Source: Candidatus Berkelbacteria bacterium RIFCSPLOWO2_01_FULL_50_28 (GTDB lineage Bacteria > Patescibacteriota > UBA1384 > 2-12-FULL-50-11). From it: 64,000 nt of DNA. Below, piece by piece: positions 1 through 47,723 of this stretch (within the stretch, counting starts at the first letter, position 1; every line of letters starts with the position of its first letter). Both the position numbers and the translations under genes were made by a program. The stretch covers positions 481,524 to 545,523 of the forward strand of contig MEZX01000002.1 of NCBI GenBank assembly GCA_001774395.1. Direction: 5' to 3'. The notes beneath the pieces are model-generated. The model was given only the letters and a program-made list of their open reading frames with translations. It did not search any database and was not told the DNA's origin.

Positions 1-2680
1 CAACGGTAATATAACCCTCGTGTCCAGCGATTTGGAATTTGTGGGTAATCGCGTGGCGTTCGTCGGGCAAACGTCGTCGGCGAGGCATATAAACGACTTT
101 CGTTTCACTCTTGGTCTCTGGTTCGTCGGGTACCTCATCAGTTTCACGTTTTTTTGTATTTAACGGCTGGCTCAACTTCGAACCGTCCCGATATAGGGCG
201 AGTGCTTTGACGCCCTGATGCCAAGACTGGATATAAACTTCCGTAACTTCTTCAACGGTGGCTTCGTGAGGCATATTGATGGTTTTGGAAATTGCACCGG
301 AGATAAACGGCTGGACGGCCGCCATCATCCGAACGTGAGCCATGGGGGCGATGAAGCGAGTTCCACGGGCGCCGCATTTATTGGCGCAGTCGAAAACTTT
401 TAGGTGCTCGTCTTTAAGAGATGGAGCGCCTTCAAGTGTCTGGGCGCCGCAAATAATCCCGTTGCTCTGGTTTATATCGGTTTCGCTGTAGCCAGCTTTC
501 TTTAGCCATGAGAACCCGGGTTCCGTTGATTCTTCCTCGGATATCCCCAGCCGCTCGTAGGCAACGTTACCCAAAGTGTGACGGTTGAATGCGTGATTGA
601 TGTCGAAACTGCTGCCGAGGATTTTGGCTACCTCGTCGATCTCACTTTCGGTAAGACCCTTTTCCGACAGGCTGGTGCGATTGATTGGCGTAGATCCCTC
701 TAGCGACCCCGTGCCTAAAACGTAAGTTAGAATACCTTGGCGTTGCGATTCATCATATCCAAGGTTAGCTAAGGCCTGTGAGACAGCGCTGTTAACGATC
801 TTTACCGAACCGCCGCCGGCGAGTTTTTTGAATTTCACTACGGCAAAATCTGGTTCGACACCGGTGGTGTCGCAGTCCATCAAAAGCCCAATCGTTCCAG
901 TTGGAGCGATAACGGTTGCTTGAGCGTTGCGATAACCAAATTGCTCGCCTAGGGCGACGGCTTCGTCCCAATCTTGTTTGGCGGCGGCGAGCAGATCTGT
1001 TGGACAGTGTCGCTCGTTCAGGGCGTACGCGGCGGACCGGTGCATTTGCATCACGTTTAACATTGGGGCCCGATTTTTAACAAATCCGGCGAACGGCCCC
1101 TTGACCGCCGAAATCTCGGCTGAAGTTTTGTAAGCGTGCCCGGTCATAATGGCCGAGAGCGCCCCGCCAATTGCCGTACCTTCGGGCGAGTCGTACGCAA
1201 CGCCTTTGAGCATTAAGAGCGTGCCAAGGTTAGCAAAACCCAATCCTAGCGGTCGATAGTCGTGGGAGTTCTTGGCGAGAATTTCCGTAGGATAGCTGGA
1301 AAGATCGACCGCAATCTCTTGCGCAATAAACATAATCTTACAAGCGTGGCGATAGGCGGCGATATCGATGTTCCCTTTGTCGTCAGCAAACTTTACAAGG
1401 TTAATCGAGGCAAGGTTACAGGCTGAATCGTCAAGAAACATATACTCCGAACACGGGTTTGAGGCGTTTATTCGACCGGTATTTGGGCAAGTGTGCCACT
1501 TATTGATAATTGTATCGAACTGCACACCTGGGTCGGCGCACTGCCAGGCGGCCTTGGCGATTTTGTCCATTAAGTATTTGGCTTTGTAGGTTTTGTACGG
1601 CTCGTTAGACGTAACCGCTCGCGTAGTCCACTCCCCGTCACTTTCGTAAGAGCGCATGAACTCGTCGTTTAAGCGCACCGAGTTGTTAGAGTTTTGGCCG
1701 GAAACAGTGTGATAAGCTTCACCGTTAAAATCGGATGAATATCCGGCATCGATCAGCGTTTGGACCTTGCGCTCCTCTTGCACCTTCCAATCGATAAATT
1801 CTTCAATCTCTGGATGAGTGATATCGACGACGACCATCTTTGCGGCTCGCCGGGTTGTCCCGCCAGATTTAACGGCATCCGCCGCTCGGTCGAATACCCG
1901 AAGAAAGCTCATCATTCCACTGGACGTTCCGCCGCCGCTCAATCGCTCAAAACGGCTGCGAAGACGGGAAAAGTTGGCACCCGAGCCGGAGCCAAACTTA
2001 AAGATGCGCGACTCGGTTTTTATCAGCTCAAAAATATCACCAAGGCTATCCCCTACTGAGAGGATGAAGCAGGCCGAGCATTGCGGATTTCGATAACCGT
2101 TTTTTGTTTCCAAAACCTTCCCCTCCTTGAAGTCCCAATAGAAACTACCGTTTGTGCCCTCGATTTTGTATTGATGATAAAGTCCGCAGTTGAACCAAAC
2201 TGGTGAGTTGAAAGCCGCTTTTTGGTTGATGAGGAGGAATTTTAACTCGTCTTCAAATGTAATTCGATCCTCGGGGGTGGCAAAGTAACCGAACTTCTCA
2301 CCGAAGTCGGCCATGGTGTGGCTGATACGGTGAACCGCTTGCTTCGCGCTGGTTTCTCGTCCTTCAGGTGTTGGGACGCCGGCTTTGCGCAAATATTTGT
2401 ATGCCAAAATGTCGGTTGCTAGTTGGCTCCAAGACGAAGGAACCTCGACATTGCTGATCTGAGCGATGATATTGCCGGATTCGTCGGCAATCGTCGTGGT
2501 GCGACGGTCGTACTGCAGTTGGCTAAATGGATCTTGACCCGGAGTGGTGAATCTTCTAGTTAGTTTTAGGCCTGTTTTGTGGTTTGGTTTGGCGCTGTTG
2601 GTGAGATCGACGGAAATCTCCACTGGTTTTAGAGCAATTTCCGCTGACTTGTCCTGCCCGCTCTTGTTGTTTTTTGCCAT
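1..2680 (-). CDS. nrdJ: Class II (adenosylcobalamin-dependent) ribonucleotide reductase NrdJ. The start codon lies at 2680 and the C-terminus runs off the window.
   Basis: Manual minus-strand translation from ATG at 2680 gives MAKNNKSGQDK... with the class II motifs NPCSEYMFLDDSACNLASINL, AQATVIAPTGTIGLLMDCDTTGVEPDF and ALYRDGSKLSQPL. The ORF is open to position 1, so it is absent from the ORF track. Confidence 0.85.
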   Translation of the reverse strand, partial: MAKNNKSGQDKSAEIALKPVEISVDLTNSAKPNHKTGLKLTRRFTTPGQDPFSQLQYDRRTTTIADESGNIIAQISNVEVPSSWSQLATDILAYKYLRKAGVPTPEGRETSAKQAVHRISHTMADFGEKFGYFATPEDRITFEDELKFLLINQKAAFNSPVWFNCGLYHQYKIEGTNGSFYWDFKEGKVLETKNGYRNPQCSACFILSVGDSLGDIFELIKTESRIFKFGSGSGANFSRLRSRFERLSGGGTSSGMMSFLRVFDRAADAVKSGGTTRRAAKMVVVDITHPEIEEFIDWKVQEERKVQTLIDAGYSSDFNGEAYHTVSGQNSNNSVRLNDEFMRSYESDGEWTTRAVTSNEPYKTYKAKYLMDKIAKAAWQCADPGVQFDTIINKWHTCPNTGRINASNPCSEYMFLDDSACNLASINLVKFADDKGNIDIAAYRHACKIMFIAQEIAVDLSSYPTEILAKNSHDYRPLGLGFANLGTLLMLKGVAYDSPEGTAIGGALSAIMTGHAYKTSAEISAVKGPFAGFVKNRAPMLNVMQMHRSAAYALNERHCPTDLLAAAKQDWDEAVALGEQFGYRNAQATVIAPTGTIGLLMDCDTTGVEPDFAVVKFKKLAGGGSVKIVNSAVSQALANLGYDESQRQGILTYVLGTGSLEGSTPINRTSLSEKGLTESEIDEVAKILGSSFDINHAFNRHTLGNVAYERLGISEEESTEPGFSWLKKAGYSETDINQSNGIICGAQTLEGAPSLKDEHLKVFDCANKCGARGTRFIAPMAHVRMMAAVQPFISGAISKTINMPHEATVEEVTEVYIQSWHQGVKALALYRDGSKLSQPLNTKKRETDEVPDEPETKSETKVVYMPRRRRLPDERHAITHKFQIAGHEGYITV

Positions 2681-38034: not shown

Positions 38035-38802
38035 ATGAATCCGTACATTGGTATTACCGACTTCACGACTATCGGTCAGGTTAGGGAGATGATCAAACTG
38101 TTCAGATCGAATCAGCTGAGCGGTTTGAATCGGATGCTCCACGTTGGTGTGATGATGAGCTACAAGACACTCCACGGTATCCCAAGCAAGTGGCAAGCTG
38201 CTTTTCCCGCCAAGGAGAATATCGCCGCCATCTTTGGCCCGTCAATGGCCTATAACTGCCTGCACTACGCGGACTACGACAACAATCCCGATCTCTGGAA
38301 AAGCCTGGACAAGGCAATCTCCTTCGGGGGCTTGTACATCGACGCGCTGCAACTCGACATGGTCTGGCCCGATCCCGGACAGGTCGCGAACGGTGTTGAT
38401 CTGTGCCGCAAGCCCATCGAAGTCATTCTCCAGATCGGCAAGAACGCTCTGGATGAAGTGGACAATGACCCGCGCGCAGTGGTCGGGAAACTGGCCGATT
38501 ACGAAGGCGTGATTCATCGCGTCCTGCTGGACAAATCCATGGGAAAAGGTCTTGGCATGGATGCCGGTGCTCTCATCCCATTTGCTCGAGCGATAAGAGA
38601 AAGATTTCCGACACTCGGCATCGGAGCCGCGGGCGGGCTTGGACCGGAAACGATTCACCTGGTCGAGCCGCTCGTTCGAGAGTTCCCCGACTTGAGTATT
38701 GACGCTCAGGGGAGACTCCGCCCAAGTGGGAATGCTCTCGATCCGATCGACTGGAAGATGGCTGGGACCTATCTCACCAAGGCTCAACAGATCTTCGCCT
38801 GA
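38035..38802 (+). CDS. TrpF-like (phosphoribosylanthranilate isomerase family) TIM-barrel protein. It is an orphan and is GC-rich.
   Basis: The N-terminal IGITDF, LLDKSMGKGLGMDAGAL...LGIGAAGGLGPE and C-terminal DAQGRLRPSGNALDP...KAQQ blocks align with PRAI motifs. A hairpin followed by a T-run lies at 38813-38848. Confidence 0.45.
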   Translation: MNPYIGITDFTTIGQVREMIKLFRSNQLSGLNRMLHVGVMMSYKTLHGIPSKWQAAFPAKENIAAIFGPSMAYNCLHYADYDNNPDLWKSLDKAISFGGLYIDALQLDMVWPDPGQVANGVDLCRKPIEVILQIGKNALDEVDNDPRAVVGKLADYEGVIHRVLLDKSMGKGLGMDAGALIPFARAIRERFPTLGIGAAGGLGPETIHLVEPLVREFPDLSIDAQGRLRPSGNALDPIDWKMAGTYLTKAQQIFA

Positions 38803-38926
38803 CGAGCCGCGAGTCCACCGCCCTACTTCTGCGGGAGTAGGGCCCTTTTCTTGCAAGACTTACTGCTTCTTGCTATTCCACATTTATCTTTCTATTGAAA
38901 ATCCCCTCTCCGGTGAGCGAGAGGGG

Positions 38927-39943
38927 TTAGATTCGGGGGTTATCCGCGCGGGCTTTCCCGTAGACGCCTCGGAGCTGGGGAGGCATCTGCGCCTCAACCT
39001 GAAGGGCGTACCCTTTGATACCTTGATACAGTGCATCGTTATGCGCCTTACCGGCGCAGTGAAGGGCCATTCGCAGATGGCGAAGCTTCTTACGCGGGAT
39101 GTACAGATCACCATCAATGATATGTACCCCGGGAAACCGGAGCGGTACGCCGTTGCGGTTTCCGTTACGAATCGCGACAGTTTTTCGTTCGTTCACCTTA
39201 AAGCCGCTTTTCTCTATGATCCGCCGAATCGCTGAATAAACCGGTCTGTCAACTTCATCATTTTCCCAAGAGAAAACAATGTTATCGACAAACCGTGTCA
39301 CCACGCCACCGACGTTAGAGGCAAGATGCTCCAATCGGGCATCCATCCTTTGGCAGGCGAAGTTGAACAAGGCCGGAGAAGTTGGGGCTCCTTGAGGAAG
39401 CACTAACTTATAGTGAGGAAGTACCTCCTTATAGTCAGAATATATATCCACTAAATCACTGACGATTTCTAGAACAGCCAACTCCATCGGCAAGATATCC
39501 CATGGTTGCTTCCTCTGGCTGCACCATCTTTCGATAACCTCACCATTCGACGTCGTGTAATGGTGGTGGTAAGTCTGGATAAAACTACGGGTGAAGCTGG
39601 CTTGGTTGTAGGCATCTTTCAGGTCGAATCCAACCATGGAGCGAGCTTTACGATGCGGGAAAGCGTTTGACTCGATACCTCGCCCCGCCACACAACCGTG
39701 GGCAATGGGCGAGACGGGAAGACAGCTGAAGTATCTTTTCAGGATGGCTTGTTGGATTGTCACCAGCGGTTCATGGGGGACGTGGATGATTCGTGTTCCA
39801 CCCCCGCTCTTTGGTTGAGCGTAAGAGCCGTAAAACGCAGCGGCTCCGTATTCTAGCACCAAGAACAGCTGGTCAGGAGGCAGGTCGAGACGTCGCGCCA
39901 GCTTGCGGCCGGCGGCGTATTGGCGACCGGTCAAAGTAGGCAT
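38927..39943 (-). CDS. Stand-alone reverse transcriptase of 338 aa, of retron / defence-associated type.
   Basis: RT motifs 1-2 PKSGGGTRIIHVPHEPLVTIQQAIL...SPIAHGCVAGRGIESNA, motif A GFDLKDAY, motif B' LPQGAPTSPALFNFAC, motif C RFVDNIVFS, and KTVAI...LRFPGVHIIDG. There is no maturase/En domain. AAGGAGA RBS. A hairpin followed by a U-run lies at 38878-38915. Confidence 0.8.
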   Translation of the reverse strand: MPTLTGRQYAAGRKLARRLDLPPDQLFLVLEYGAAAFYGSYAQPKSGGGTRIIHVPHEPLVTIQQAILKRYFSCLPVSPIAHGCVAGRGIESNAFPHRKARSMVGFDLKDAYNQASFTRSFIQTYHHHYTTSNGEVIERWCSQRKQPWDILPMELAVLEIVSDLVDIYSDYKEVLPHYKLVLPQGAPTSPALFNFACQRMDARLEHLASNVGGVVTRFVDNIVFSWENDEVDRPVYSAIRRIIEKSGFKVNERKTVAIRNGNRNGVPLRFPGVHIIDGDLYIPRKKLRHLRMALHCAGKAHNDALYQGIKGYALQVEAQMPPQLRGVYGKARADNPRI

Positions 39944-39959
39944 AGTGCGTCTCCTTGAT

Positions 39960-40230
39960 TTGTTAAGGTGGGGGCCACTCGACCCCCGGACTGGCTACTC
40001 GGCTTCAAGCGAGTCGGCAGGACCGCCGCGCGCAATGACATGTACTGTTCTCTCGTCAGACTTCTGACAAGCGAGGCGCGTGTGAAGGCTACTTATCACG
40101 TTTAGCTCGGCTTTCTTCTGAGGCCAAACATTACGCGTGACAGTAATTCCTTAACCGTTTGCCTATATCTAGCCAGGCTACCAGCAAACTACCAGAGGAA
40201 AGATTAATTATCAATATATTATTGGACAAG
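39960..40230 (-). ncRNA. Candidate structured ncRNA upstream of the RT gene, a possible retron msr/msd- or DRT-type template RNA.
   Basis: ~330 bp with no ORF. On the minus strand it contains several hairpins: GGGGG-N8-CCCCC, ACTCG-N8-CGAGT, GTCAGAAGTCTGAC, a CGCGC...GCGCG outer stem, and a CTGGCTA/TAGCCAG terminal inverted repeat. Confidence 0.35.
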
Positions 40231-40282
40231 TCATTTTCTGGTCCACTTCTCAAATTCGCCCTCTCGTAGTACGCTAATATCA

Positions 40283-41311
40283 ATGGCAGAGGGGCAGATT
40301 GTTGTAGTAGACGAGGGTAAGATGCTGGAACGAATTCTTGAATTCCCCAGCCAGTTGGAGCAGTCCTGGGCCGATTTGTGGACGAAAGAGCTCCCCCTGG
40401 ACCCGACTACGATTCACCAGGTGATAATCTGCGGCATGGGAGGATCTGGCATTGCTGGGGTAATTGCGAAAAGCCTTTTTCAGGATTCGGCCACGATTCC
40501 TATTGCCTTCTGGCATGACTACGGTTTACCGATGTACGCTGGGCCTAACACCCTGGTGCTGGCGGTCAGCGACTCTGGTGATACGGAAGAAACCTTAGAT
40601 TCCTTAAGAAAAGCGTTCGAACGAAAATGTCAGATTGTGGTGATTTCTCGCGGCGGCAAAGACAAAGAAGTGGCCCAGAATAACAACATTCAGTTCGTCG
40701 AGGTAAAAATAGATGCCCCTCCCCGAGCGGCTCTTGGTTACCTTTTGGGCTCGGTTCTCGCCGTCTTGACGAAAGCTAAGCTAATTAATCTTACTGAACA
40801 AGCTTACTTTCTGGCTTTAGGAGAGCTGAAGAATGCCATTTCCCAAAAAACTTTTCCCGCCAAGGCGGAAGAGCTAAGTATTAGTCTGAATAATAAGGTG
40901 CCGCTTATTTTAGCATCTGAGCCGTTAAGCGGTGTCGCCAAGAGGTGGCAAAATCAGTTCAACGAAAACTCGAAAACATTTGCCGTCTTTCAGGAGCTGC
41001 CAGAGGCGTGTCATAACGTGATCCAAGGGTTAGATTTCGCCATTGACGAGAAGATAATCGTGTTGAATCTGGTTTCAAATTACGGCTTTTCACGCAATGT
41101 TGCTCGCGGCAAGATCTTGCAACAACTCTTTTCCACCAAGGAGATTCCGTTTGTACCGCTCACAATACGGTCCGGTTCGGCGCTGGCCGAGCAGTTCTTG
41201 TTCAGCCATTTCGGCGATTTGCTTTCCTACTATCTAGCGGGCGTTAACGGTGTCGATCCAACTCCCGTGGAAGATATCGACAAGTTCAAGGAAGGATTAA
41301 TGAAGTTGTAA
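40283..41311 (+). CDS. pgi: Bifunctional phosphoglucose/phosphomannose isomerase (SIS domain, archaeal type).
   Basis: ICGMGGSGIAG...AVSDSGDTEE. An alternative start is MLERIL at 40320, which has a GAGGG RBS. Confidence 0.8.
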   Translation: MAEGQIVVVDEGKMLERILEFPSQLEQSWADLWTKELPLDPTTIHQVIICGMGGSGIAGVIAKSLFQDSATIPIAFWHDYGLPMYAGPNTLVLAVSDSGDTEETLDSLRKAFERKCQIVVISRGGKDKEVAQNNNIQFVEVKIDAPPRAALGYLLGSVLAVLTKAKLINLTEQAYFLALGELKNAISQKTFPAKAEELSISLNNKVPLILASEPLSGVAKRWQNQFNENSKTFAVFQELPEACHNVIQGLDFAIDEKIIVLNLVSNYGFSRNVARGKILQQLFSTKEIPFVPLTIRSGSALAEQFLFSHFGDLLSYYLAGVNGVDPTPVEDIDKFKEGLMKL

Positions 41312-41416: not shown

Positions 41417-42619
41417 ATGGCAAAGATTTCACGAGTTTGGGGACAGGTGATCCACGACTCTAGGGGCGACGACACCGTCCAGGCTTCGGTTCAAGACGAA
41501 CGAGGTCTTATCGCTTCATCCGCCGTTCCGGCAGGAGCTTCCAAGGGAAAGTTCGAAGCCGCGACAGTTGAACCAGCCGCGGCGGTTAGTAACATCAACG
41601 AAATTATCGGCCATGCGCTGGTAAATCGCGACCCAGCCGATCAAGCAGGCATAGATCGCTTCATGATAGAGCTTGACGGAACGTCAAATAAATCTCACTT
41701 GGGGGCTAACGCGATCTTGGGAGTTTCGATGGCAATAACCCGGTTGGCTGCTCTCGAGCAGCAGCTCCCCCTGTACCGCTATATCGGCAAACTCAACAAT
41801 CGTAACGAATTCCATATTCCCATACCGATGATGAATATGATAAATGGCGGCAAACACGCCAACAATAATTTAGATATTCAAGAATTTATGGTCGTACCAG
41901 ATCGCGTTACTGGTTACCATAACCAGCTCTCCGCCGGAAAGATGATTTTTAGCACCCTTGGCACTATTTTGCGCGAAGACCATCTCTCAGTGGCCAACGG
42001 TGACGAGGGTGGTTACGCTCCAAATTTGGATACCAACGAGATGGCGCTCGATTATTTAATGCGGGCCATTAAACAATCTGGCTACCAACCTTGGGATGAA
42101 GTTTCGCTGGCACTGGACGTCGCCGCAAGTAGCCTACCACCAACTTTCGAAGTTACCCCGAGTCGTTTCTTAGGGATATTACGTGATTTCCCCATCCTTT
42201 CCCTGGAGGACCCGTTTGATGAGGAGGACTGGGAGAACTGGGTGAAGTTCTTGTCACAGATGGAACAATCTAACTCCAGCACAAAAAAACTTATGCTGGT
42301 GGGTGACGACCTGTTCGTGACGAACCAAGAAAGACTGCGTAAAGGCATCGAGATGAAAGCGGCCAACGCTATTCTGGTCAAATTAAATCAAATCGGAACC
42401 GTCACTGAAACTCTTGAGGTTTCCGAAATGGCCAAGGACGCTGGTTTTATGACAATCGTTTCCCATCGTTCAGGCGAAACTCTTGACGATTTCATCGCAG
42501 ATTTTTCTGTTGGAACCGGTGCCCAATTCATTAAAACTGGCGCTCCAAACGATACGCATCAAGAGCGGATGACCAAGTACCGCCGTTTGCTGACGATTGA
42601 GCAAGAGTTAGCAGCGTAA
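41417..42619 (+). CDS. eno: Enolase.
   Basis: MAKISRVWGQVIHDSRGDDTVQA... with a canonical enolase architecture. Confidence 0.9.
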   Translation: MAKISRVWGQVIHDSRGDDTVQASVQDERGLIASSAVPAGASKGKFEAATVEPAAAVSNINEIIGHALVNRDPADQAGIDRFMIELDGTSNKSHLGANAILGVSMAITRLAALEQQLPLYRYIGKLNNRNEFHIPIPMMNMINGGKHANNNLDIQEFMVVPDRVTGYHNQLSAGKMIFSTLGTILREDHLSVANGDEGGYAPNLDTNEMALDYLMRAIKQSGYQPWDEVSLALDVAASSLPPTFEVTPSRFLGILRDFPILSLEDPFDEEDWENWVKFLSQMEQSNSSTKKLMLVGDDLFVTNQERLRKGIEMKAANAILVKLNQIGTVTETLEVSEMAKDAGFMTIVSHRSGETLDDFIADFSVGTGAQFIKTGAPNDTHQERMTKYRRLLTIEQELAA

Positions 42620-44194
42620 ATGTCACCGCGGCCCAAACCTGTAGTCCTAGCGGTAATTGACGGCTGGGGAGTTGCACCAACCTGGGGCGGCAACGCTATC
42701 GCCCTGGCCCAAACGCCGTTCTACAACGAAGTGAAGAAAGTATTTCCCAACACAACTCTAGCGGCTTCCGGAGACGCCGTTGGCTTGCCGGCCAAATTCC
42801 ATGGGAATTCTGAGGTGGGACATCTAAACATCGGCACGGGACAGGTTGTGCAACAGTCGTTGCCGGCCATCACCACAGCAATCAGTGACAATAGTTTCTT
42901 TTCCAATCCCGCACTGGTAAACGCTTTCCAACGTATCAATAATACTGATAATTCGGTCCACATCATGGGATTGGCATCTGACGGCGGAATTCACAGTCAC
43001 ATCGACCATCTCTTCGCGCTGCTAGATATGGCGAAACACTGCGGCGTCAAGGATGTCTGTATCCACGTCATCACCGATGGTCGTGATACTTCGCCGTTTG
43101 TTTCCCAACAGTTCTGCGCTCTAATTGATCAGAAAATTGCCGAGGTGGGTATCGGGCGCATTTGTACTGTTTCTGGACGTTACTACGCTATGGATCGTGA
43201 TAATCGCTGGGATAGAATTGAAAAAACGTATCGTGCTATTACCGAGGGCGTTGGTCTGGAGGCGCGCACGCCCGAGGCTGCCATTGCGTCTGCCTATCGA
43301 GACGGATTCTCCGACGAATTTATCGTCCCAACCGTCATCAGAGGTGAAGGCAACAGCTTTCGACCGTTGTCTGATGGGGATTCGCTTATCTTTTTTAATT
43401 TTCGTGGCGATCGAGCGCGAGAAATAACCCAAGCTTTCGTACGACCAAATTTTAAGGAATTTGAGCGAAAAGTGACTATCAGTAGCCTGTATTTTGTTGG
43501 ATTTACTTTCTACCAAGAGGGATTGCCGATCCAAGTCGCTTTTCACCCACGGGATGTGAAGTACCCGCTGGCACGGATACTGTCTGACGCTGGCTTAAAA
43601 CAGTTGCACGTCGCTGAATCAGAAAAATACGCCCACGTAACGTACTTTTTCAACGGTGGGAGAGAAGAGTCGTATCCGCGTGAGGATCGAATCGTTGTAC
43701 CTTCTCCAAAAGTTTCGAGCTACGATCAGACCCCTGCTATGTCGACAACAGAAATCACAGAAACCGTTATCAGCCACATCACTAATTATGACTTCATCCT
43801 GCTTAATTACGCCTGTCCAGATATGATAGGACACACGGGAAATCTGCGAGCGGCCATCCAGGCGGTTGAAGCGGTAGACAAAAGCATGGCGGAGATATTT
43901 AAGACAATTCAAGAGCATGACGGGGTGTTCATTATCACCGCCGATCACGGCAACGTTGAACAGATGGTTAACCCCAAAACTGGAGAGCCCGACACTGAGC
44001 ACACAGGCCACCCGGTGCCGTTCATTGTGGCCAACGACACTCAGGTAACCGCTCTAAGAAGTGGGGGCAAACTATCTGACGTCGCGCCAACTATCCTGCA
44101 GATTATGGGGATTGCAGCTCCTGATGAGATGGAAGGTAAAAGCCTGATTACCTCTCCCACTCCGACTTCGCCAGTAACCACTGCTCCCGTCTAA
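42620..44194 (+). CDS. gpmI: 2,3-bisphosphoglycerate-independent phosphoglycerate mutase.
   Basis: VIDGWG...SEVGHLNIGTG...ITADHGN. Confidence 0.9.
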   Translation: MSPRPKPVVLAVIDGWGVAPTWGGNAIALAQTPFYNEVKKVFPNTTLAASGDAVGLPAKFHGNSEVGHLNIGTGQVVQQSLPAITTAISDNSFFSNPALVNAFQRINNTDNSVHIMGLASDGGIHSHIDHLFALLDMAKHCGVKDVCIHVITDGRDTSPFVSQQFCALIDQKIAEVGIGRICTVSGRYYAMDRDNRWDRIEKTYRAITEGVGLEARTPEAAIASAYRDGFSDEFIVPTVIRGEGNSFRPLSDGDSLIFFNFRGDRAREITQAFVRPNFKEFERKVTISSLYFVGFTFYQEGLPIQVAFHPRDVKYPLARILSDAGLKQLHVAESEKYAHVTYFFNGGREESYPREDRIVVPSPKVSSYDQTPAMSTTEITETVISHITNYDFILLNYACPDMIGHTGNLRAAIQAVEAVDKSMAEIFKTIQEHDGVFIITADHGNVEQMVNPKTGEPDTEHTGHPVPFIVANDTQVTALRSGGKLSDVAPTILQIMGIAAPDEMEGKSLITSPTPTSPVTTAPV

Positions 44195-44742: not shown

Positions 44743-44903
44743 TCCTCTCACCTCCTTCCCCAACTCATATTATTACTATGACATAATTACGTCGCCTGGC
44801 TAGGTTTTTGTCAACCCCTCAACGCCGTTCTGGGTTGACCTTGGGCATTCGAAAGGTCAAGAGCCGTTGCCCAACTGCCCCCTCAAGAGCTAACATAGGA
44901 CAG

Positions 44904-47723
44904 ATGGGTTATAACCACAAGGACATTGAGCACAGGTGGCGTCCTAAATTCGACGCTGCAAAGCTTTCAACCTGCGACCTCTCAAGCGGTGAGCCGTTCT
45001 ACTGCTTGGATATGTTCCCCTACCCTTCTGGCGATGGTCTGCATGTCGGTCATTGGCGTGGGTACACTTTAAGTGATTTTTACGTTCGTTATTGGAGTCT
45101 TAAGGGTAAAAATGTCTTGCACCCGATGGGTTTCGATGCGTTTGGCCTACCGGCTGAAAACGCGGCAATCAAAAGTAAAACTCATCCCAAGAAATTTACC
45201 GATCGTGCAATAGAGACATTTAAAACTCAGCTGAACGCTCTGGGGGCGCTTTACGACTGGAAGAAGCAAGTAAACACCAGCTCTCCTGACTATTACCGCT
45301 GGACTCAGTGGTTGTTTCTGCAGTTTTTCAAGCACGGACTGGCTGAGAAAAGACAAGCTTTAGTTAACTGGTGTCCGAAAGACCAAACAGTACTGGCCAA
45401 CGAGCAAGTCGTGGGCGGCTGTTGCGAACGCTGCGGCAGTAAGGTTACCAAAAAAAGCTTGTCGCAGTGGTATTTGAAAATAACTGATTTTACCGAGAGC
45501 CTTTTATCGGGGCTTGATACTCTTGATTGGCCAGAGCACGTCAAAGCCCTGCAGCGAAACTGGATCGGCCGATCAGACGGCGCAACCGTTAAGTTTCATA
45601 CTGAACACGGCCCGATTGAAGTTTTCACCACCAGGTTGGACACAATTTATGGGGTAAGCGCGATCCTCTTGGCGCCGGAGCATTCCTTAGTCGAAAAACT
45701 TACAAAGGCGGCGCAGGAGAAGACAGTTCAGAGCTATCTCCAGGAAACCTTATCGAAGTCAGACCTGGACCGGCAGATGGAAGATCAAACAAAAACGGGC
45801 GTTTTTACCGGATCGACTGCCATTCACCCATTTTCAAAGCAGGAGCTACCGATTTGGGTAGCTGACTACGTACTGCCGTCGTACGGTACCGGTGCGGTAA
45901 TGCTTGTGCCCGCCCACGACAAACGAGACCACGAGTTCGCCACCGCGCACAATCTGCCGATTCTGTCTGTGATTGAGCCCGAGTTTATCGACAACAAAGA
46001 GCCAAGCAACGTCAGAGAGGACCTGCCTTTTGTTGAACGAGATGGGATTGTCGCGATTGTAAAACACTGGTCCGAAGATAAATATCTGGGCTTAAAGTGG
46101 AAAAAAGTAGCCTGGGGAACTTGGATTACTGGAGGCATTGAGAAGGGCCAGTCACCCGAAGAAGCAGCAACATCTGAAATCCTTGAGGAAGTTGGTTATA
46201 ATAAACTTCGGCTAGTGAAAAATTTAGGCAGACTACACTCAAAATTCTATCACGGACCTAAGAGCGAGAATCGTTCACTGCACGGGCACTGTCTCTATTT
46301 CGAGCTCACCAGCGACGAAATGGCTCAAATTTCAGACGAAGAGGTTGGCAAACACGAACCAATTTGGCTATCAAAGGGCGAGGTGGAACAGTTCATGACA
46401 GCTGATGCTCACAAGTGGGCTTGGAGACAGCTTCAGGACGACCCCGCGCTGTATGAAGGCAGCGGTTACCTTACTAACTCCGGTAGGTACGACGGTCTAA
46501 GTAGTGATCTTGCGGCCAAAAAGATTGCTGATGATTTGGCCATCCGCGGTATCGGAGGGCAAACAGTTAGCTATCATCTCCGTGACTGGTTAGTTTCTCG
46601 CCAGCGCTACTGGGGCTGTCCAATACCGATCGTCTACGACCCCAAAGGATACCCGCACGCCGTAAAAGATGAGTATCTTCCGCTCTTGCTGCCGACCGAC
46701 GTTGATTTTCAACCTGGAGGTGAGAGTCCGATCGCTCGATCAAAGGAGTACGCCAAGAGGGCCGAAAAGTTTTACAGTAAAGGTTGGCACTTCGATACAG
46801 ACACGCTCGACACCTTTGTTGACTCGTCCTGGTACTATTTGCGTTATCTCTCCCCACGAGACGACCAACAGGCCTTCGATAAGTCCAGGGTGAAAAAATG
46901 GTTGCCGGTTGACTTATACATCGGCGGTATCGAACACGCCGTGCTTCACCTACTTTATTCAAGGTTCGTCTTTCAGTTTTTGTCTAAGTTTGGCTATGTC
47001 GACGTCAAGACAAACGAGCCGTTTAAAAAATTATTCAATATTGGCATGGTCACGCTTCATGGCGCAAAAATGAGCAAAAGTAAGGGTAACGTCATCTCGC
47101 CCGACCCGTTAATCGACGCTTACGGTACGGACGCTCTGCGCGGTTACGAGCTGTTCCTGGGACCGGTGGAGAACGATGCGGAGTGGAGCGGGAACGGTAT
47201 TAATGGAATTCACCGATTTTTAATTAAACTCGAAAAGCTCTCAACTTTAGTTCATCCAACCGCTATTGAGTCACAGCGTCAGCGATTCGACGAGTATCTC
47301 GACACTATAAATAAAATGATTCAGGATTTTCGCTTAAATACCGTCATTTCTGAAGGTATGAAACTCATCAATACACTGGGCTCAAAGGTCATCGATGCGG
47401 AAGTTTGGCGACGATTTTTGGTGACTATTTCGCCTATGTACCCGTATCTCTCGCAAGAGCTCTACGCTAGTTCATCGCAAAAGGGGCTGATTATCGAGCA
47501 AGAAAAATGGCCGGAGAAATTCCACGTTGCTCATAAAGTCCAAGTGATTAAAGTGCTTTTCAACCAAAAATTTGTTGGCTCGCTTGAAGCAGATAAGTCG
47601 TTCTCAGAAACTAATATCTTGGAGCTGATCAGTCATTCACCCGCCATAGCGGCAAAAATCAATAAAGGTAAATTTAGTCGAACCATCTACAAACCAGGTG
47701 AGCTGATCAACCTGATCCCCTAG
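44904..47723 (+). CDS. leuS: Leucyl-tRNA synthetase carrying a ~150 aa NUDIX-like insertion.
   Basis: HIGH-type PYPSGDGLHVGH and KMSKSKGN. An extra domain at ~46035-46500 has a degenerate Nudix box GGIEKGQSPEEAATSEILEEVGY. Confidence 0.9.
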   Translation: MGYNHKDIEHRWRPKFDAAKLSTCDLSSGEPFYCLDMFPYPSGDGLHVGHWRGYTLSDFYVRYWSLKGKNVLHPMGFDAFGLPAENAAIKSKTHPKKFTDRAIETFKTQLNALGALYDWKKQVNTSSPDYYRWTQWLFLQFFKHGLAEKRQALVNWCPKDQTVLANEQVVGGCCERCGSKVTKKSLSQWYLKITDFTESLLSGLDTLDWPEHVKALQRNWIGRSDGATVKFHTEHGPIEVFTTRLDTIYGVSAILLAPEHSLVEKLTKAAQEKTVQSYLQETLSKSDLDRQMEDQTKTGVFTGSTAIHPFSKQELPIWVADYVLPSYGTGAVMLVPAHDKRDHEFATAHNLPILSVIEPEFIDNKEPSNVREDLPFVERDGIVAIVKHWSEDKYLGLKWKKVAWGTWITGGIEKGQSPEEAATSEILEEVGYNKLRLVKNLGRLHSKFYHGPKSENRSLHGHCLYFELTSDEMAQISDEEVGKHEPIWLSKGEVEQFMTADAHKWAWRQLQDDPALYEGSGYLTNSGRYDGLSSDLAAKKIADDLAIRGIGGQTVSYHLRDWLVSRQRYWGCPIPIVYDPKGYPHAVKDEYLPLLLPTDVDFQPGGESPIARSKEYAKRAEKFYSKGWHFDTDTLDTFVDSSWYYLRYLSPRDDQQAFDKSRVKKWLPVDLYIGGIEHAVLHLLYSRFVFQFLSKFGYVDVKTNEPFKKLFNIGMVTLHGAKMSKSKGNVISPDPLIDAYGTDALRGYELFLGPVENDAEWSGNGINGIHRFLIKLEKLSTLVHPTAIESQRQRFDEYLDTINKMIQDFRLNTVISEGMKLINTLGSKVIDAEVWRRFLVTISPMYPYLSQELYASSSQKGLIIEQEKWPEKFHVAHKVQVIKVLFNQKFVGSLEADKSFSETNILELISHSPAIAAKINKGKFSRTIYKPGELINLIP

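What the first reader, a model, noticed from the sequence alone, without database searches (positions are those of the whole stretch)
39944..40282. Highly structured non-coding region directly upstream of the RT gene
On the RT-coding strand this region carries several hairpins: a GGGGG-N8-CCCCC hairpin, an ACTCG-CTTGAAGC-CGAGT hairpin, a perfect GTCAGA/TCTGAC hairpin nested inside a CGCGC...GCGCG stem, and a terminal inverted repeat CTGGCTA ... TAGCCAG near the two ends. That layout resembles the a1/a2 pairing of retron ncRNAs. The region ends at the AAGGAGA RBS of the RT.
Basis: seen in the sequence. Interest (0 to 1): 0.6.

Follow-up and report, generated by a model that had tools for sequence, protein, structure and literature searches.

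The report
Effector-less retron RNA in a Berkelbacterium
The structured spacer is a conserved non-coding RNA partner of a retron-type reverse transcriptase, and the pair belongs to an undescribed family, mostly in tiny-genome CPR bacteria, that has an altered catalytic motif (YxDN) and no neighbouring effector gene.

Summary
Window 39944..40282 is non-coding and, on the RT strand, folds better than shuffles (z -3.2). The CGCGC/GCGCG stem and the ACTCG/CGAGT hairpin are not conserved.

The 338-aa RT is retron-type by sequence and predicted fold. It belongs to a family of at least 40 clusters at 50% identity, mostly in CPR/Patescibacteria. The family has YxDN instead of YxDD and (L/F)PG instead of VTG.

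In about 25 loci the same RNA layout precedes the RT:
- a sigma-70-like promoter ending about 7 nt before a1
- a1, immediately followed by G
- a variable stem-loop
- the near-invariant GUCAGAAYUCUGAC hairpin
- 46-62 variable nt
- a2
- a GC-rich hairpin, then the RBS

P1 and SL2 covary strongly (91% of cells paired against 70% in shuffles; 13 of 18 pairs have compensatory changes).

No neighbouring gene is conserved. The flanks are housekeeping genes. Against a sister genome the flanks are 89-97% identical, but the ncRNA+RT cassette is only 55-80% identical (RT dS 2.7 against 0.3 for PGI).

Best reading: a two-component retron of a new type. msDNA synthesis is inferred, not shown.

The parts
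40209..40214 (-). Putative -35 box (TTGATA) of the ncRNA promoter
   Evidence: A TTGAYA-like box sits about 45 nt upstream of the branch G in most loci. It is a consensus match and has not been tested.
40186..40191 (-). Putative -10 box (TAGTTT), 17-nt spacer, ending about 7 nt before P1
   Evidence: TAnTTT or TATTTT boxes lie at the same distance from a1 in L008, L011, L013-L015, L019, L020, L022 and L030. This predicts a transcription start at about 40179.
40170..40176 (-). a1, the 5' arm of the closing helix P1 (CUGGCUA)
   Evidence: It pairs with 39997..39991 and appears in the minimum-energy fold. It covaries across 19 loci.
40169..40169 (-). G immediately 3' of a1; candidate branching (priming) G
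   Evidence: A G follows a1 in all 19 loci tabulated. Its role as a 2'-OH primer is inferred from canonical retrons.
40075..40168 (-). SL1, a long imperfect stem-loop domain whose length varies in the family (23-135 nt)
   Evidence: z -3.0 in the window. In the window-versus-L001 consensus fold of 53 pairs, most of them in SL1, 8 are compensatory and 11 changed on one side.
40049..40074 (-). SL2, the near-invariant hairpin GUCAG-AAGU-CUGAC (core 40068..40055) with a covarying stem extension
   Evidence: It is found 125-177 nt upstream of the RT start in more than 25 loci. 92% of cells are paired and 5 of 9 pairs have compensatory changes. G.U pairs are only valid on the RT strand.
39998..40048 (-). 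Variable segment between SL2 and a2 (46-62 nt in the family); putative msd template
   Evidence: Its length is conserved but its sequence is not. It is not more structured than shuffles (mean z -0.64). The assignment as template is an inference.
39991..39997 (-). a2, the 3' arm of P1 (UAGCCAG)
39970..39987 (-). GC-rich hairpin after a2 (GGGGGUC-GAGU-GGCCCCC)
   Evidence: A strong hairpin of unrelated sequence occupies this position in 18 of 19 loci (mean z -4.4). In some loci it is followed by a U run (L028, L020, L030).
39959..39968 (-). Conserved CCUUAACAAA motif (CYUUUAA[A/C]AA in the family)
   Evidence: role unknown
39950..39956 (-). RBS AAGGAGA of the RT
38927..39943 (-). Retron-type reverse transcriptase, 338 aa. 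Motif C is FVDN (residues 218-221), the region-X motif is NAFPH (residues 93-97), and FPG replaces VTG.
   Evidence: dN/dS is 0.076 against L001.
38903..38926 (-). Terminator-like hairpin directly after the RT stop codon
   Evidence: The next gene (38035..38802) is convergent.

Best explanation
The spacer encodes a ncRNA of about 215 nt that is the cognate partner of the downstream retron-type RT. Together they form a two-component, effector-less retron of a type not covered by current classifications.

Proposed mechanism:
1. A sigma-70-like promoter starts transcription at the 5' edge of a1. (Inferred from the position of consensus boxes.)
2. a1 (40176..40170) pairs with a2 (39997..39991) and closes a multi-branch fold made of SL1, SL2 and a variable segment. 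(Shown by covariation.)
3. The near-invariant SL2 hairpin, possibly with SL1, is the RT recognition element. (Inferred, because the RT is the only protein conserved with it.)
4. The 2'-OH of G40169, held next to the base 5' of a2, primes reverse transcription of the 46-62-nt segment upstream of a2. This gives a short branched msDNA. (Inferred by analogy with retrons. It could extend through SL2.)
5. The GC-rich hairpin after a2 defines the ncRNA 3' end or attenuates read-through into the RT ORF. (Inferred.)

The RT keeps the motif A Asp (D107), the first motif C Asp (D220) and the motif D Lys (K254), and has Asn at the second motif C position. I take it to be an active polymerase, perhaps with altered metal requirements.

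The ncRNA+RT cassette is exchanged as a unit between related genomes. That is more typical of a conflict (phage-defence) module than of a housekeeping gene.
For: RT identity:
- Pfam RVT_1.
- The best 25 of 49 PADLOC hits are all retron RT models.
- The PDB profile search gives retron Ec86, Ec67, Ec83 and Ec78 RTs at 1e-45 to 1e-39 over the full length.
- The AF2 model has pLDDT 91, and its top 18 PDB matches are all retron RTs with TM 0.63-0.74.
- The NAxxH motif is present.

RNA layout:
- The order a1-G ... SL2 ... a2 - hairpin - RBS recurs with constrained spacing: SL2 to a2 is 46-62 nt and a2 to ATG is 54-101 nt.
- On the 19-locus excerpt alignment, 91.2% of cells pair against 70.0% in shuffles (0 of 500 reach the observed value), and 29-46% when partners are slid. 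13 of 18 pairs have compensatory changes. The covariation score is 0.60 against 0.20.
- On the covariance-model alignment, which includes 6 loci not used as seeds, 94.9% of cells pair and 7 pairs are compensatory.
- Minimum-energy folds of the full upstream regions recover P1 without my choosing its register in the window, L001 and L002 and in L019-L023, L026, L030 and L031.
- The window-versus-L001 consensus fold has 8 compensatory and 11 one-sided changes among 53 pairs.
- G.U pairs fit only the RT strand.
- Promoter boxes sit at a fixed distance from a1.

Selection and cassette behaviour:
- RT dN/dS is 0.076.
- The cassette is 55-80% identical to L001 while the flanks are 89-97% identical. 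RT dS is 2.66 against 0.30 for PGI.
- L016 carries two tandem cassettes, each with its own ncRNA.
Against: - There is no direct evidence for a transcript or for msDNA.
- The second Asp of YxDD is Asn in at least 90% of the family. This could mean reduced or altered catalysis.
- The VTG triplet, which in retrons directs the RT to its msr, is replaced by (L/F)PG with a 4-aa insertion.
- The segment where the msd should lie has no long stable hairpin (mean z -0.64), unlike canonical msd stems of 10-50 bp.
- No effector gene is linked, so the tripartite logic of known defence retrons is missing.
- I chose the P1 registers by looking for complementarity, which inflates the P1 figures. Individual helices are not beyond chance.
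Confidence: 0.6

Rival explanations
1. The RNA is only a cis-regulatory leader of the RT mRNA. The RT, or another factor, would bind SL2 and control read-through at the post-a2 hairpin. No DNA would be made from the RNA.
For: A strong hairpin, with a U run in some loci, sits between the structured RNA and the RBS in 18 of 19 loci. The presumed template segment is unstructured. The catalytic motif is YxDN.
Against: The layout a1/a2 plus G matches the retron priming geometry. The RT keeps D107, D220, K254 and the QGxxxSP motif under purifying selection, which is hard to explain for a protein that only binds RNA. A leader would not need a closing helix 170-230 nt across.
Confidence: 0.13
2. It is an RT+ncRNA system that works like the DRT systems rather than like a retron. 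The ncRNA would template another product, such as a concatemeric or homopolymeric cDNA, without 2'-5' branch priming. That would explain why no separate effector is needed.
For: The module has two components and no effector, as DRT2 and DRT9 do. The catalytic and thumb motifs are unusual. The template segment is unstructured.
Against: The RT is much closer to retron RTs than to DRT2 or DRT9: 1e-45 against 6e-11 and 1.6e-8, with TM 0.63-0.74 against 0.38-0.53. Sixteen of 19 loci have no stop-free frame across a concatemerised unit, and unit lengths are not multiples of 3. The conserved G next to a closing helix is the retron hallmark.
Confidence: 0.15
3. The conserved palindrome and repeats act at the DNA level, as an operator or divergent-promoter element shared with the PGI gene, and not as RNA.
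For: GTCAGAATTCTGAC is a perfect DNA palindrome in many loci. In the window the spacer also holds the PGI promoter.
Against: The element keeps a fixed distance and orientation relative to the RT whatever the upstream gene is. Its centre varies while the stem and its extension covary, including G.U pairs valid only on the RT strand.
Confidence: 0.03

Closest known systems
Canonical retrons (for example Retron-Eco1/Ec86; msr-msd ncRNA plus RT)
   Same: The RT has the same sequence family and fold and the NAxxH motif. The ncRNA lies directly upstream on the same strand. An a1/a2 helix has a G at the 3' end of a1. The RT size is similar (338 aa against 320 aa).
   Different: There is no linked effector. 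Motif C is YxDN, not YxDD. (L/F)PG replaces VTG. There is no long msd hairpin. A family-wide invariant SL2 and a hairpin after a2 are present. The hosts are mostly CPR bacteria. The RT scores below the NCBIfam retron cut-offs (125 bits against 235).
Effector-less 'orphan' retrons of the Ec107/Retron-Eco5 clade (Mestre et al. 2020, PMC7736814; Toro 2026 preprint 10.64898/2026.05.14.725207)
   Same: They are retron RT plus ncRNA with no recurrent accessory gene.
   Different: The RT is not closest to that clade: the PADLOC model RT_Ec107-like gives 103 bits against 158 for RT_XIII. The hosts, the motif C change and the ncRNA design all differ.
Retron type XIII (RT clade 10; ARM-like and WH-SWIM partners)
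   Same: It is the best-scoring PADLOC RT model. Type XIII is described as largely vertically inherited and as having its own ncRNA structure (PMC7736814).
   Different: The alignment to the model is only partial (two stretches; the best covers positions 269-408 of 469). The roughly 150-aa extension of type XIII RTs is absent, and so are the SWIM and ARM genes.
DRT2 / DRT9 (UG/Abi RTs with an upstream ncRNA and no separate effector)
   Same: They are two-component RT+ncRNA modules in which the RT product itself is the effector.
   Different: They belong to a different RT clade. This locus has no concatemer ORF and has the retron-type a1/a2-G geometry.

Membership tests
Retron | The RT belongs to the retron/retron-like RT clade by sequence and fold | tested here: met
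   The best 25 of 49 PADLOC hits are retron RT models. The PDB profile search gives Ec86 RT at 1e-45 over the full length. The top 18 Foldseek matches are retron RTs.
Retron | NAxxH motif (region X, between RT2 and RT3) | tested here: met
   NAFPH at residues 93-97. H97 is invariant and N93 at least 90% conserved in the 29-sequence family alignment.
Retron | VTG triplet in RT7 (region Y) | tested here: not met
   It is replaced by FPG in the window and (L/F)PG in the family, preceded by a 4-aa insertion (GNRxGVPLR). Only the G (G272) is kept.
Retron | Catalytic YxDD in motif C | tested here: not met
   FVDN in the window. N221 is at least 90% conserved in the family, and D220 and D107 are invariant.
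Retron | ncRNA next to the RT on the same strand, with inverted repeats a1/a2 and a conserved G at the 3' end of a1 | tested here: met
   The G is present in all 19 tabulated loci.
Retron | msd region forming a stable hairpin (stem 10-50 bp) adjacent to a2 | tested here: inconclusive
   The SL2-to-a2 segment is no more structured than shuffles (mean z -0.64). SL2 itself has 8-10 bp but lies 46-62 nt from a2.
Retron | Production of 2'-5' branched msDNA | not testable with these tools
   This needs expression and nucleic-acid analysis.
Retron | Linked effector gene or fused effector domain (tripartite system, types I-XIII) | tested here: not met
   Across 23 loci no neighbour family is shared except cysS, in 5 loci. 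Downstream genes are housekeeping (window neighbours). At 338 aa the RT has no extra domain.
Retron | Reaches the curated cut-off of an existing retron RT family model | tested here: not met
   NCBIfam retron_St85_RT gives 125 bits against a cut-off of 235. The Ec67 and TIR models are far below their cut-offs.
Rfam RNA families (all 4227 in release 15) | Match to a curated covariance model | tested here: not met
   No relevant hit at E <= 10 in the window region and none at gathering score near the RT in 16 related loci.
Diversity-generating retroelement | Template repeat and variable repeat pair with adenine-specific mismatches | tested here: not met
   No second copy of any 40-mer of the spacer in the 64-kb window, even allowing mismatches at A. 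The RT has QGAPTSP, whereas from my own recollection DGR RTs carry an [I/L]GxxxSQ motif. The solved DGR RT is a weak structural match at rank 26.
DRT2-type RT+ncRNA | DRT2 RT family, with a template that gives a stop-free ORF when concatemerised | tested here: not met
   NCBIfam Drt2 gives 28 bits against a cut-off of 390. Sixteen of 19 loci have no stop-free concatemer frame.
Group II intron | Intron RNA domains and a maturase-type RT | tested here: not met
   No Rfam intron hit. TIGR04416 gives 34 bits against a cut-off of 300.

The most novel reading that the evidence does not exclude
CPR bacteria with genomes of about 0.6 Mb keep a self-sufficient two-part retron. In this reading the RT-ncRNA(-msDNA) particle is itself both sensor and effector, or serves a non-defence role. 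Its YxDN active site would give a chemistry different from canonical retron RTs, such as a different metal requirement, limited or regulated synthesis, or a non-canonical product. It would be a retron type whose function does not depend on a toxin partner.
Probability: 0.25. Interest if true: 0.85.

Novelty: new variant of a known kind. Interest (0 to 1): 0.62.

Why it matters
All characterised retrons act through a linked toxin or effector that the msDNA holds in check. A widespread effector-less lineage would show what an RT-ncRNA pair can do on its own, or would point to effectors encoded elsewhere in the genome. This lineage has a family-wide change in the catalytic motif and an invariant RNA hairpin, and it sits in genomes that keep very little non-essential DNA.

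It also offers compact RTs (about 300-340 aa) with short, well-defined ncRNAs for retron-based DNA production. [quoted passage not shown] The swap of the whole cassette between near-identical genomes gives a natural test of RT-ncRNA co-specificity.

Tried and rejected
- **Rfam.** The E-value scan of the region and the gathering scan of 16 related loci found no family.
- **First genome-contig scan.** Run with the 3-sequence alignment, its peptide patterns were too narrow and it found nothing. The 10-sequence alignment then worked.
- **Global MAFFT/RNAalifold alignment of whole ncRNAs across subgroups.** It misaligns the variable SL1 domain. I used excerpted fixed-length pieces (A10) and a covariance model (R1) instead. 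R1, built from the short-SL1 subgroup, finds only SL2 in the window (15.9 bits, E 0.32).
- **DGR reading.** Rejected: no TR/VR pair.
- **DRT2-like 'neo' ORF.** Rejected.
Not conserved in L001.
- **Alternative outer pairing GTTAAGG/CCTTAAC.** It spans the post-a2 hairpin, but the register is not conserved in L001 and in other loci the 5' partner would lie in the promoter.
- **Small ORFs 40131..40283 (-) and 39903..40067 (+).** Not conserved.
- **Promoter sites from the simple scan.** They lie upstream of the boxes conserved in the family, which I prefer.
- **Per-locus shuffle test of a1/a2.** Weak.
- **Literature searches.** Searches for YADN, YxDN, and retron with Patescibacteria or Candidate Phyla Radiation found no description of this family.

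Full report
**What is in the window.** The finding covers the 339-nt spacer between two divergent genes. One is a 338-aa ORF on the minus strand (38927..39943). The other is a SIS-domain phosphoglucose isomerase on the plus strand (40283..41311). The spacer folds at -114.6 kcal/mol against -96.4 +/- 5.6 for shuffles (z -3.24), and the minimum-energy fold closes on the CTGGCTA/TAGCCAG helix. Rfam has no match. The short ORFs that overlap the spacer are not conserved in the closest relative.

**The gene downstream is a retron-type RT with unusual motifs.**
- It matches Pfam RVT_1.
- The best 25 of its 49 PADLOC hits are all retron RT models, the best being RT_XIII at 1.3e-46, though only over part of the model.
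- NCBIfam's retron_St85_RT gives 125 bits against a cut-off of 235.
- A profile of the family matches the solved retron RTs (Ec86, Ec67, Ec83, Ec78) at 1e-45 to 1e-39 over the full length. Group II, DRT2 and DRT9 RTs score far lower.
- An AlphaFold2 model (pLDDT 91, pTM 0.85) has retron RTs as its top 18 PDB matches, with TM 0.63-0.74.
- The retron NAxxH motif is present (NAFPH).
- Motif C reads FVDN instead of YxDD.
- The retron VTG triplet is replaced by FPG after a 4-residue insertion.

**It is a family, not a one-off.** The word-indexed protein search found only two close relatives, at 67% and 44% identity. A profile search of 1.84 billion cluster representatives found many more.
- 40 of the best 149 representatives carry [TS]R[YF]xDN.
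- In a 29-sequence alignment D107, D220, K254 and Q184/G185 are invariant and N221 is at least 90% conserved.
- All 26 metagenome loci but one (L027, a truncated ORF) and all 12 genome loci fetched with this family have the DN motif.

**Hosts.** The window itself comes from Candidatus Berkelbacteria bacterium RIFCSPLOWO2_01_FULL_50_28, on a 629-kb contig. The genome-derived relatives are Berkelbacteria, Woykebacteria, Paceibacterota, Moranbacteria, WWE3 and unclassified Patescibacteria. There is also one MAG labelled Gammaproteobacteria and one labelled Fimivivens.

**The RNA is conserved with the RT.** Upstream of the RT in about 25 loci the same order of elements recurs:
1. A TTGAYA-N17-TAnTTT promoter-like pair ending about 7 nt before a1.
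2. a1, followed at once by G.
3. A stem-loop domain SL1 of 23-135 nt.
4. A nearly invariant hairpin GUCAGAAYUCUGAC (SL2), 125-177 nt before the start codon.
5. 46-62 nt of variable sequence.
6. a2.
7. A strong GC-rich hairpin of unrelated sequence.
8. A CYUUUAA(A/C)AA motif.
9. The RBS.

The a1/a2 arms differ between loci but stay complementary:

| Locus | a1 | a2 |
|---|---|---|
| window | CUGGCUA | UAGCCAG |
| L002 | GCUUGGCUA | UAGCCAAGC |
| L008 | GUACGUUGACUA | UAGUCGACGUAC |
| L009 | ACUUGGGCUA | UAGCCCAAGU |
| L028 | GUCAGGCUA | UAGCCUGAC |
| L014/L015 | UGCUGCUC | GAGCAGCA |
| L030 | UAAUGUGG | CCACAUUA |

**Covariation measures.**
- On an excerpt alignment of 19 loci (A10), the 9-bp P1 and 9-bp SL2 give 91.2% paired cells against 70.0% in shuffles (0 of 500 shuffles reach it) and 29-46% when partners are slid. 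13 of 18 pairs have changes on both sides. The covariation score is 0.60 against 0.20.
- A covariance model built from six loci of the short-SL1 subgroup recovers six further loci full-length. On that alignment 94.9% of cells pair and 7 pairs are compensatory.
- Between the window and L001 the consensus fold has 53 pairs, of which 8 are compensatory and 11 changed on one side. L002 against L008 has 15 compensatory pairs among 64.

**Caveats on the covariation evidence.**
- I chose the P1 registers by looking for complementarity.
- Single-locus helices are not beyond chance.
- The covariance-model alignment is fitted to the structure.
- Independent support comes from minimum-energy folds of whole upstream regions, which recover P1 without my input.

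**What is not supported.** The CGCGC/GCGCG stem around SL2 and the ACTCG/CGAGT hairpin are specific to the window. The segment between SL2 and a2, where a retron msd would lie, is not more structured than shuffles (mean z -0.64). SL1 (mean z -1.55) and above all the post-a2 hairpin (mean z -4.4) are structured.

**Context.** The RT is solitary. A terminator-like hairpin follows its stop codon, and the next gene is convergent. Within +/-6 kb the window holds only housekeeping genes: enolase, iPGM, PGI, Sua5, sortase, MreB and LeuRS. Across 23 loci the only neighbour family shared by more than two loci is cysteinyl-tRNA synthetase, in 5 loci. Downstream genes are glycerate kinase, TsaD, HisRS, RecG, H+-PPase and the like. 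No TR/VR pair and no DRT2-like endless ORF exist.

**Evolution.**
- In a distant Berkelbacterium (L008/L033) the RT sits next to the same enolase-iPGM pair, and its identity to the window RT (41%) equals that of enolase (42%). This fits long-term vertical descent.
- In the sister genome L001 the flanks are 89-97% identical at the DNA level. From inside SL1 to the end of the RT, identity falls to 55-80%.
- RT dS is 2.66 against 0.30 for PGI, with RT dN/dS 0.076. The ncRNA+RT cassette is therefore an old allele placed between young flanks. It has been exchanged as a unit by recombination and is under purifying selection.
- L016 carries two tandem cassettes, each with its own ncRNA.

**Interpretation.** The conserved, covarying RNA that is co-inherited with a retron-clade RT is best read as a retron msr-msd. 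It has a closing helix with a G at its 3' edge and a promoter placed at a1. By analogy with retrons, G40169 primes from its 2'-OH, and the RT copies the segment 5' of a2.

SL2 is invariant across RTs that share under 30% identity, and the RT is the only protein conserved with it. SL2 is therefore most likely the RT recognition hairpin.

From my own knowledge of polymerases: the motif A Asp and the first motif C Asp are the universal metal ligands. Asn at the second position is tolerated in some RNA-dependent RNA polymerases, such as the GDN motif of Mononegavirales L proteins. Poliovirus 3D mutants at that position show altered metal use. I therefore expect the RT to be active, but this is untested.

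The differences from canonical retrons place this outside the 13 described types (Mestre et al. 2020, PMC7736814). Those differences are the lack of an effector, YxDN, no VTG, no long msd hairpin, the post-a2 hairpin and the CPR hosts. A 2026 survey of retron diversity does not mention Patescibacteria, and full-text searches found no description of this family. Effector-less retrons as such are known (the Ec107-like clade), so I rate this as a new variant of a known kind.

**Rivals considered.** They are a purely cis-regulatory leader, a DRT-like RT+ncRNA system without branch priming, and a DNA-level operator. Their evidence is set out in the rival explanations.

Noticed in passing
window 38905..40150, compared with L001: The ncRNA+RT cassette is 55-80% identical to a sister genome whose flanks are 89-97% identical. 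RT dS is 2.66 against 0.30 for PGI. The whole cassette looks like an old allele swapped in between young flanks.
   Followed up: partly
window 44808..47723 (+): A 971-aa leucyl-tRNA synthetase has a NUDIX domain (residues 415-532) inserted after the editing domain.
   Followed up: no
L016 741..3277: Two tandem RT genes of this family (353 and 375 aa) each have their own upstream ncRNA. The second ncRNA lies at 1909..2096 and scores 36 bits with model R1.
   Followed up: partly
window 39959..39968 (-), and the same position in most loci: A conserved CYUUUAA(A/C)AA motif lies 5-12 nt after the post-a2 hairpin and before the RBS. It is too far from the stem in many loci to be a classical terminator U-tract.
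   Followed up: no
L023 1201..1214; L039, about 170 nt upstream of the RT: SL2 reads GTCGGAAYTCGGAC in these two loci. The A-U pair of the core is replaced by G opposite G in both related loci.
   Followed up: no
L008/L033, compared with window 41417..44194: The RT lies next to the same enolase-iPGM pair in a distant Berkelbacterium. RT identity (41%) equals enolase identity (42%). PGI is absent from that position.
   Followed up: partly
L001 2420..2986 (-): The homologue of the window's 255-aa gene (38035..38802) carries an in-frame stop near its 5' part, and synteny ends there.
   Followed up: no
L038 and L040: Family members occur in MAGs labelled Gammaproteobacteria (with a full ncRNA) and Fimivivens (467-aa RT, no recognisable SL2). 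These could be mis-binning, horizontal transfer or a divergent subtype.
   Followed up: no
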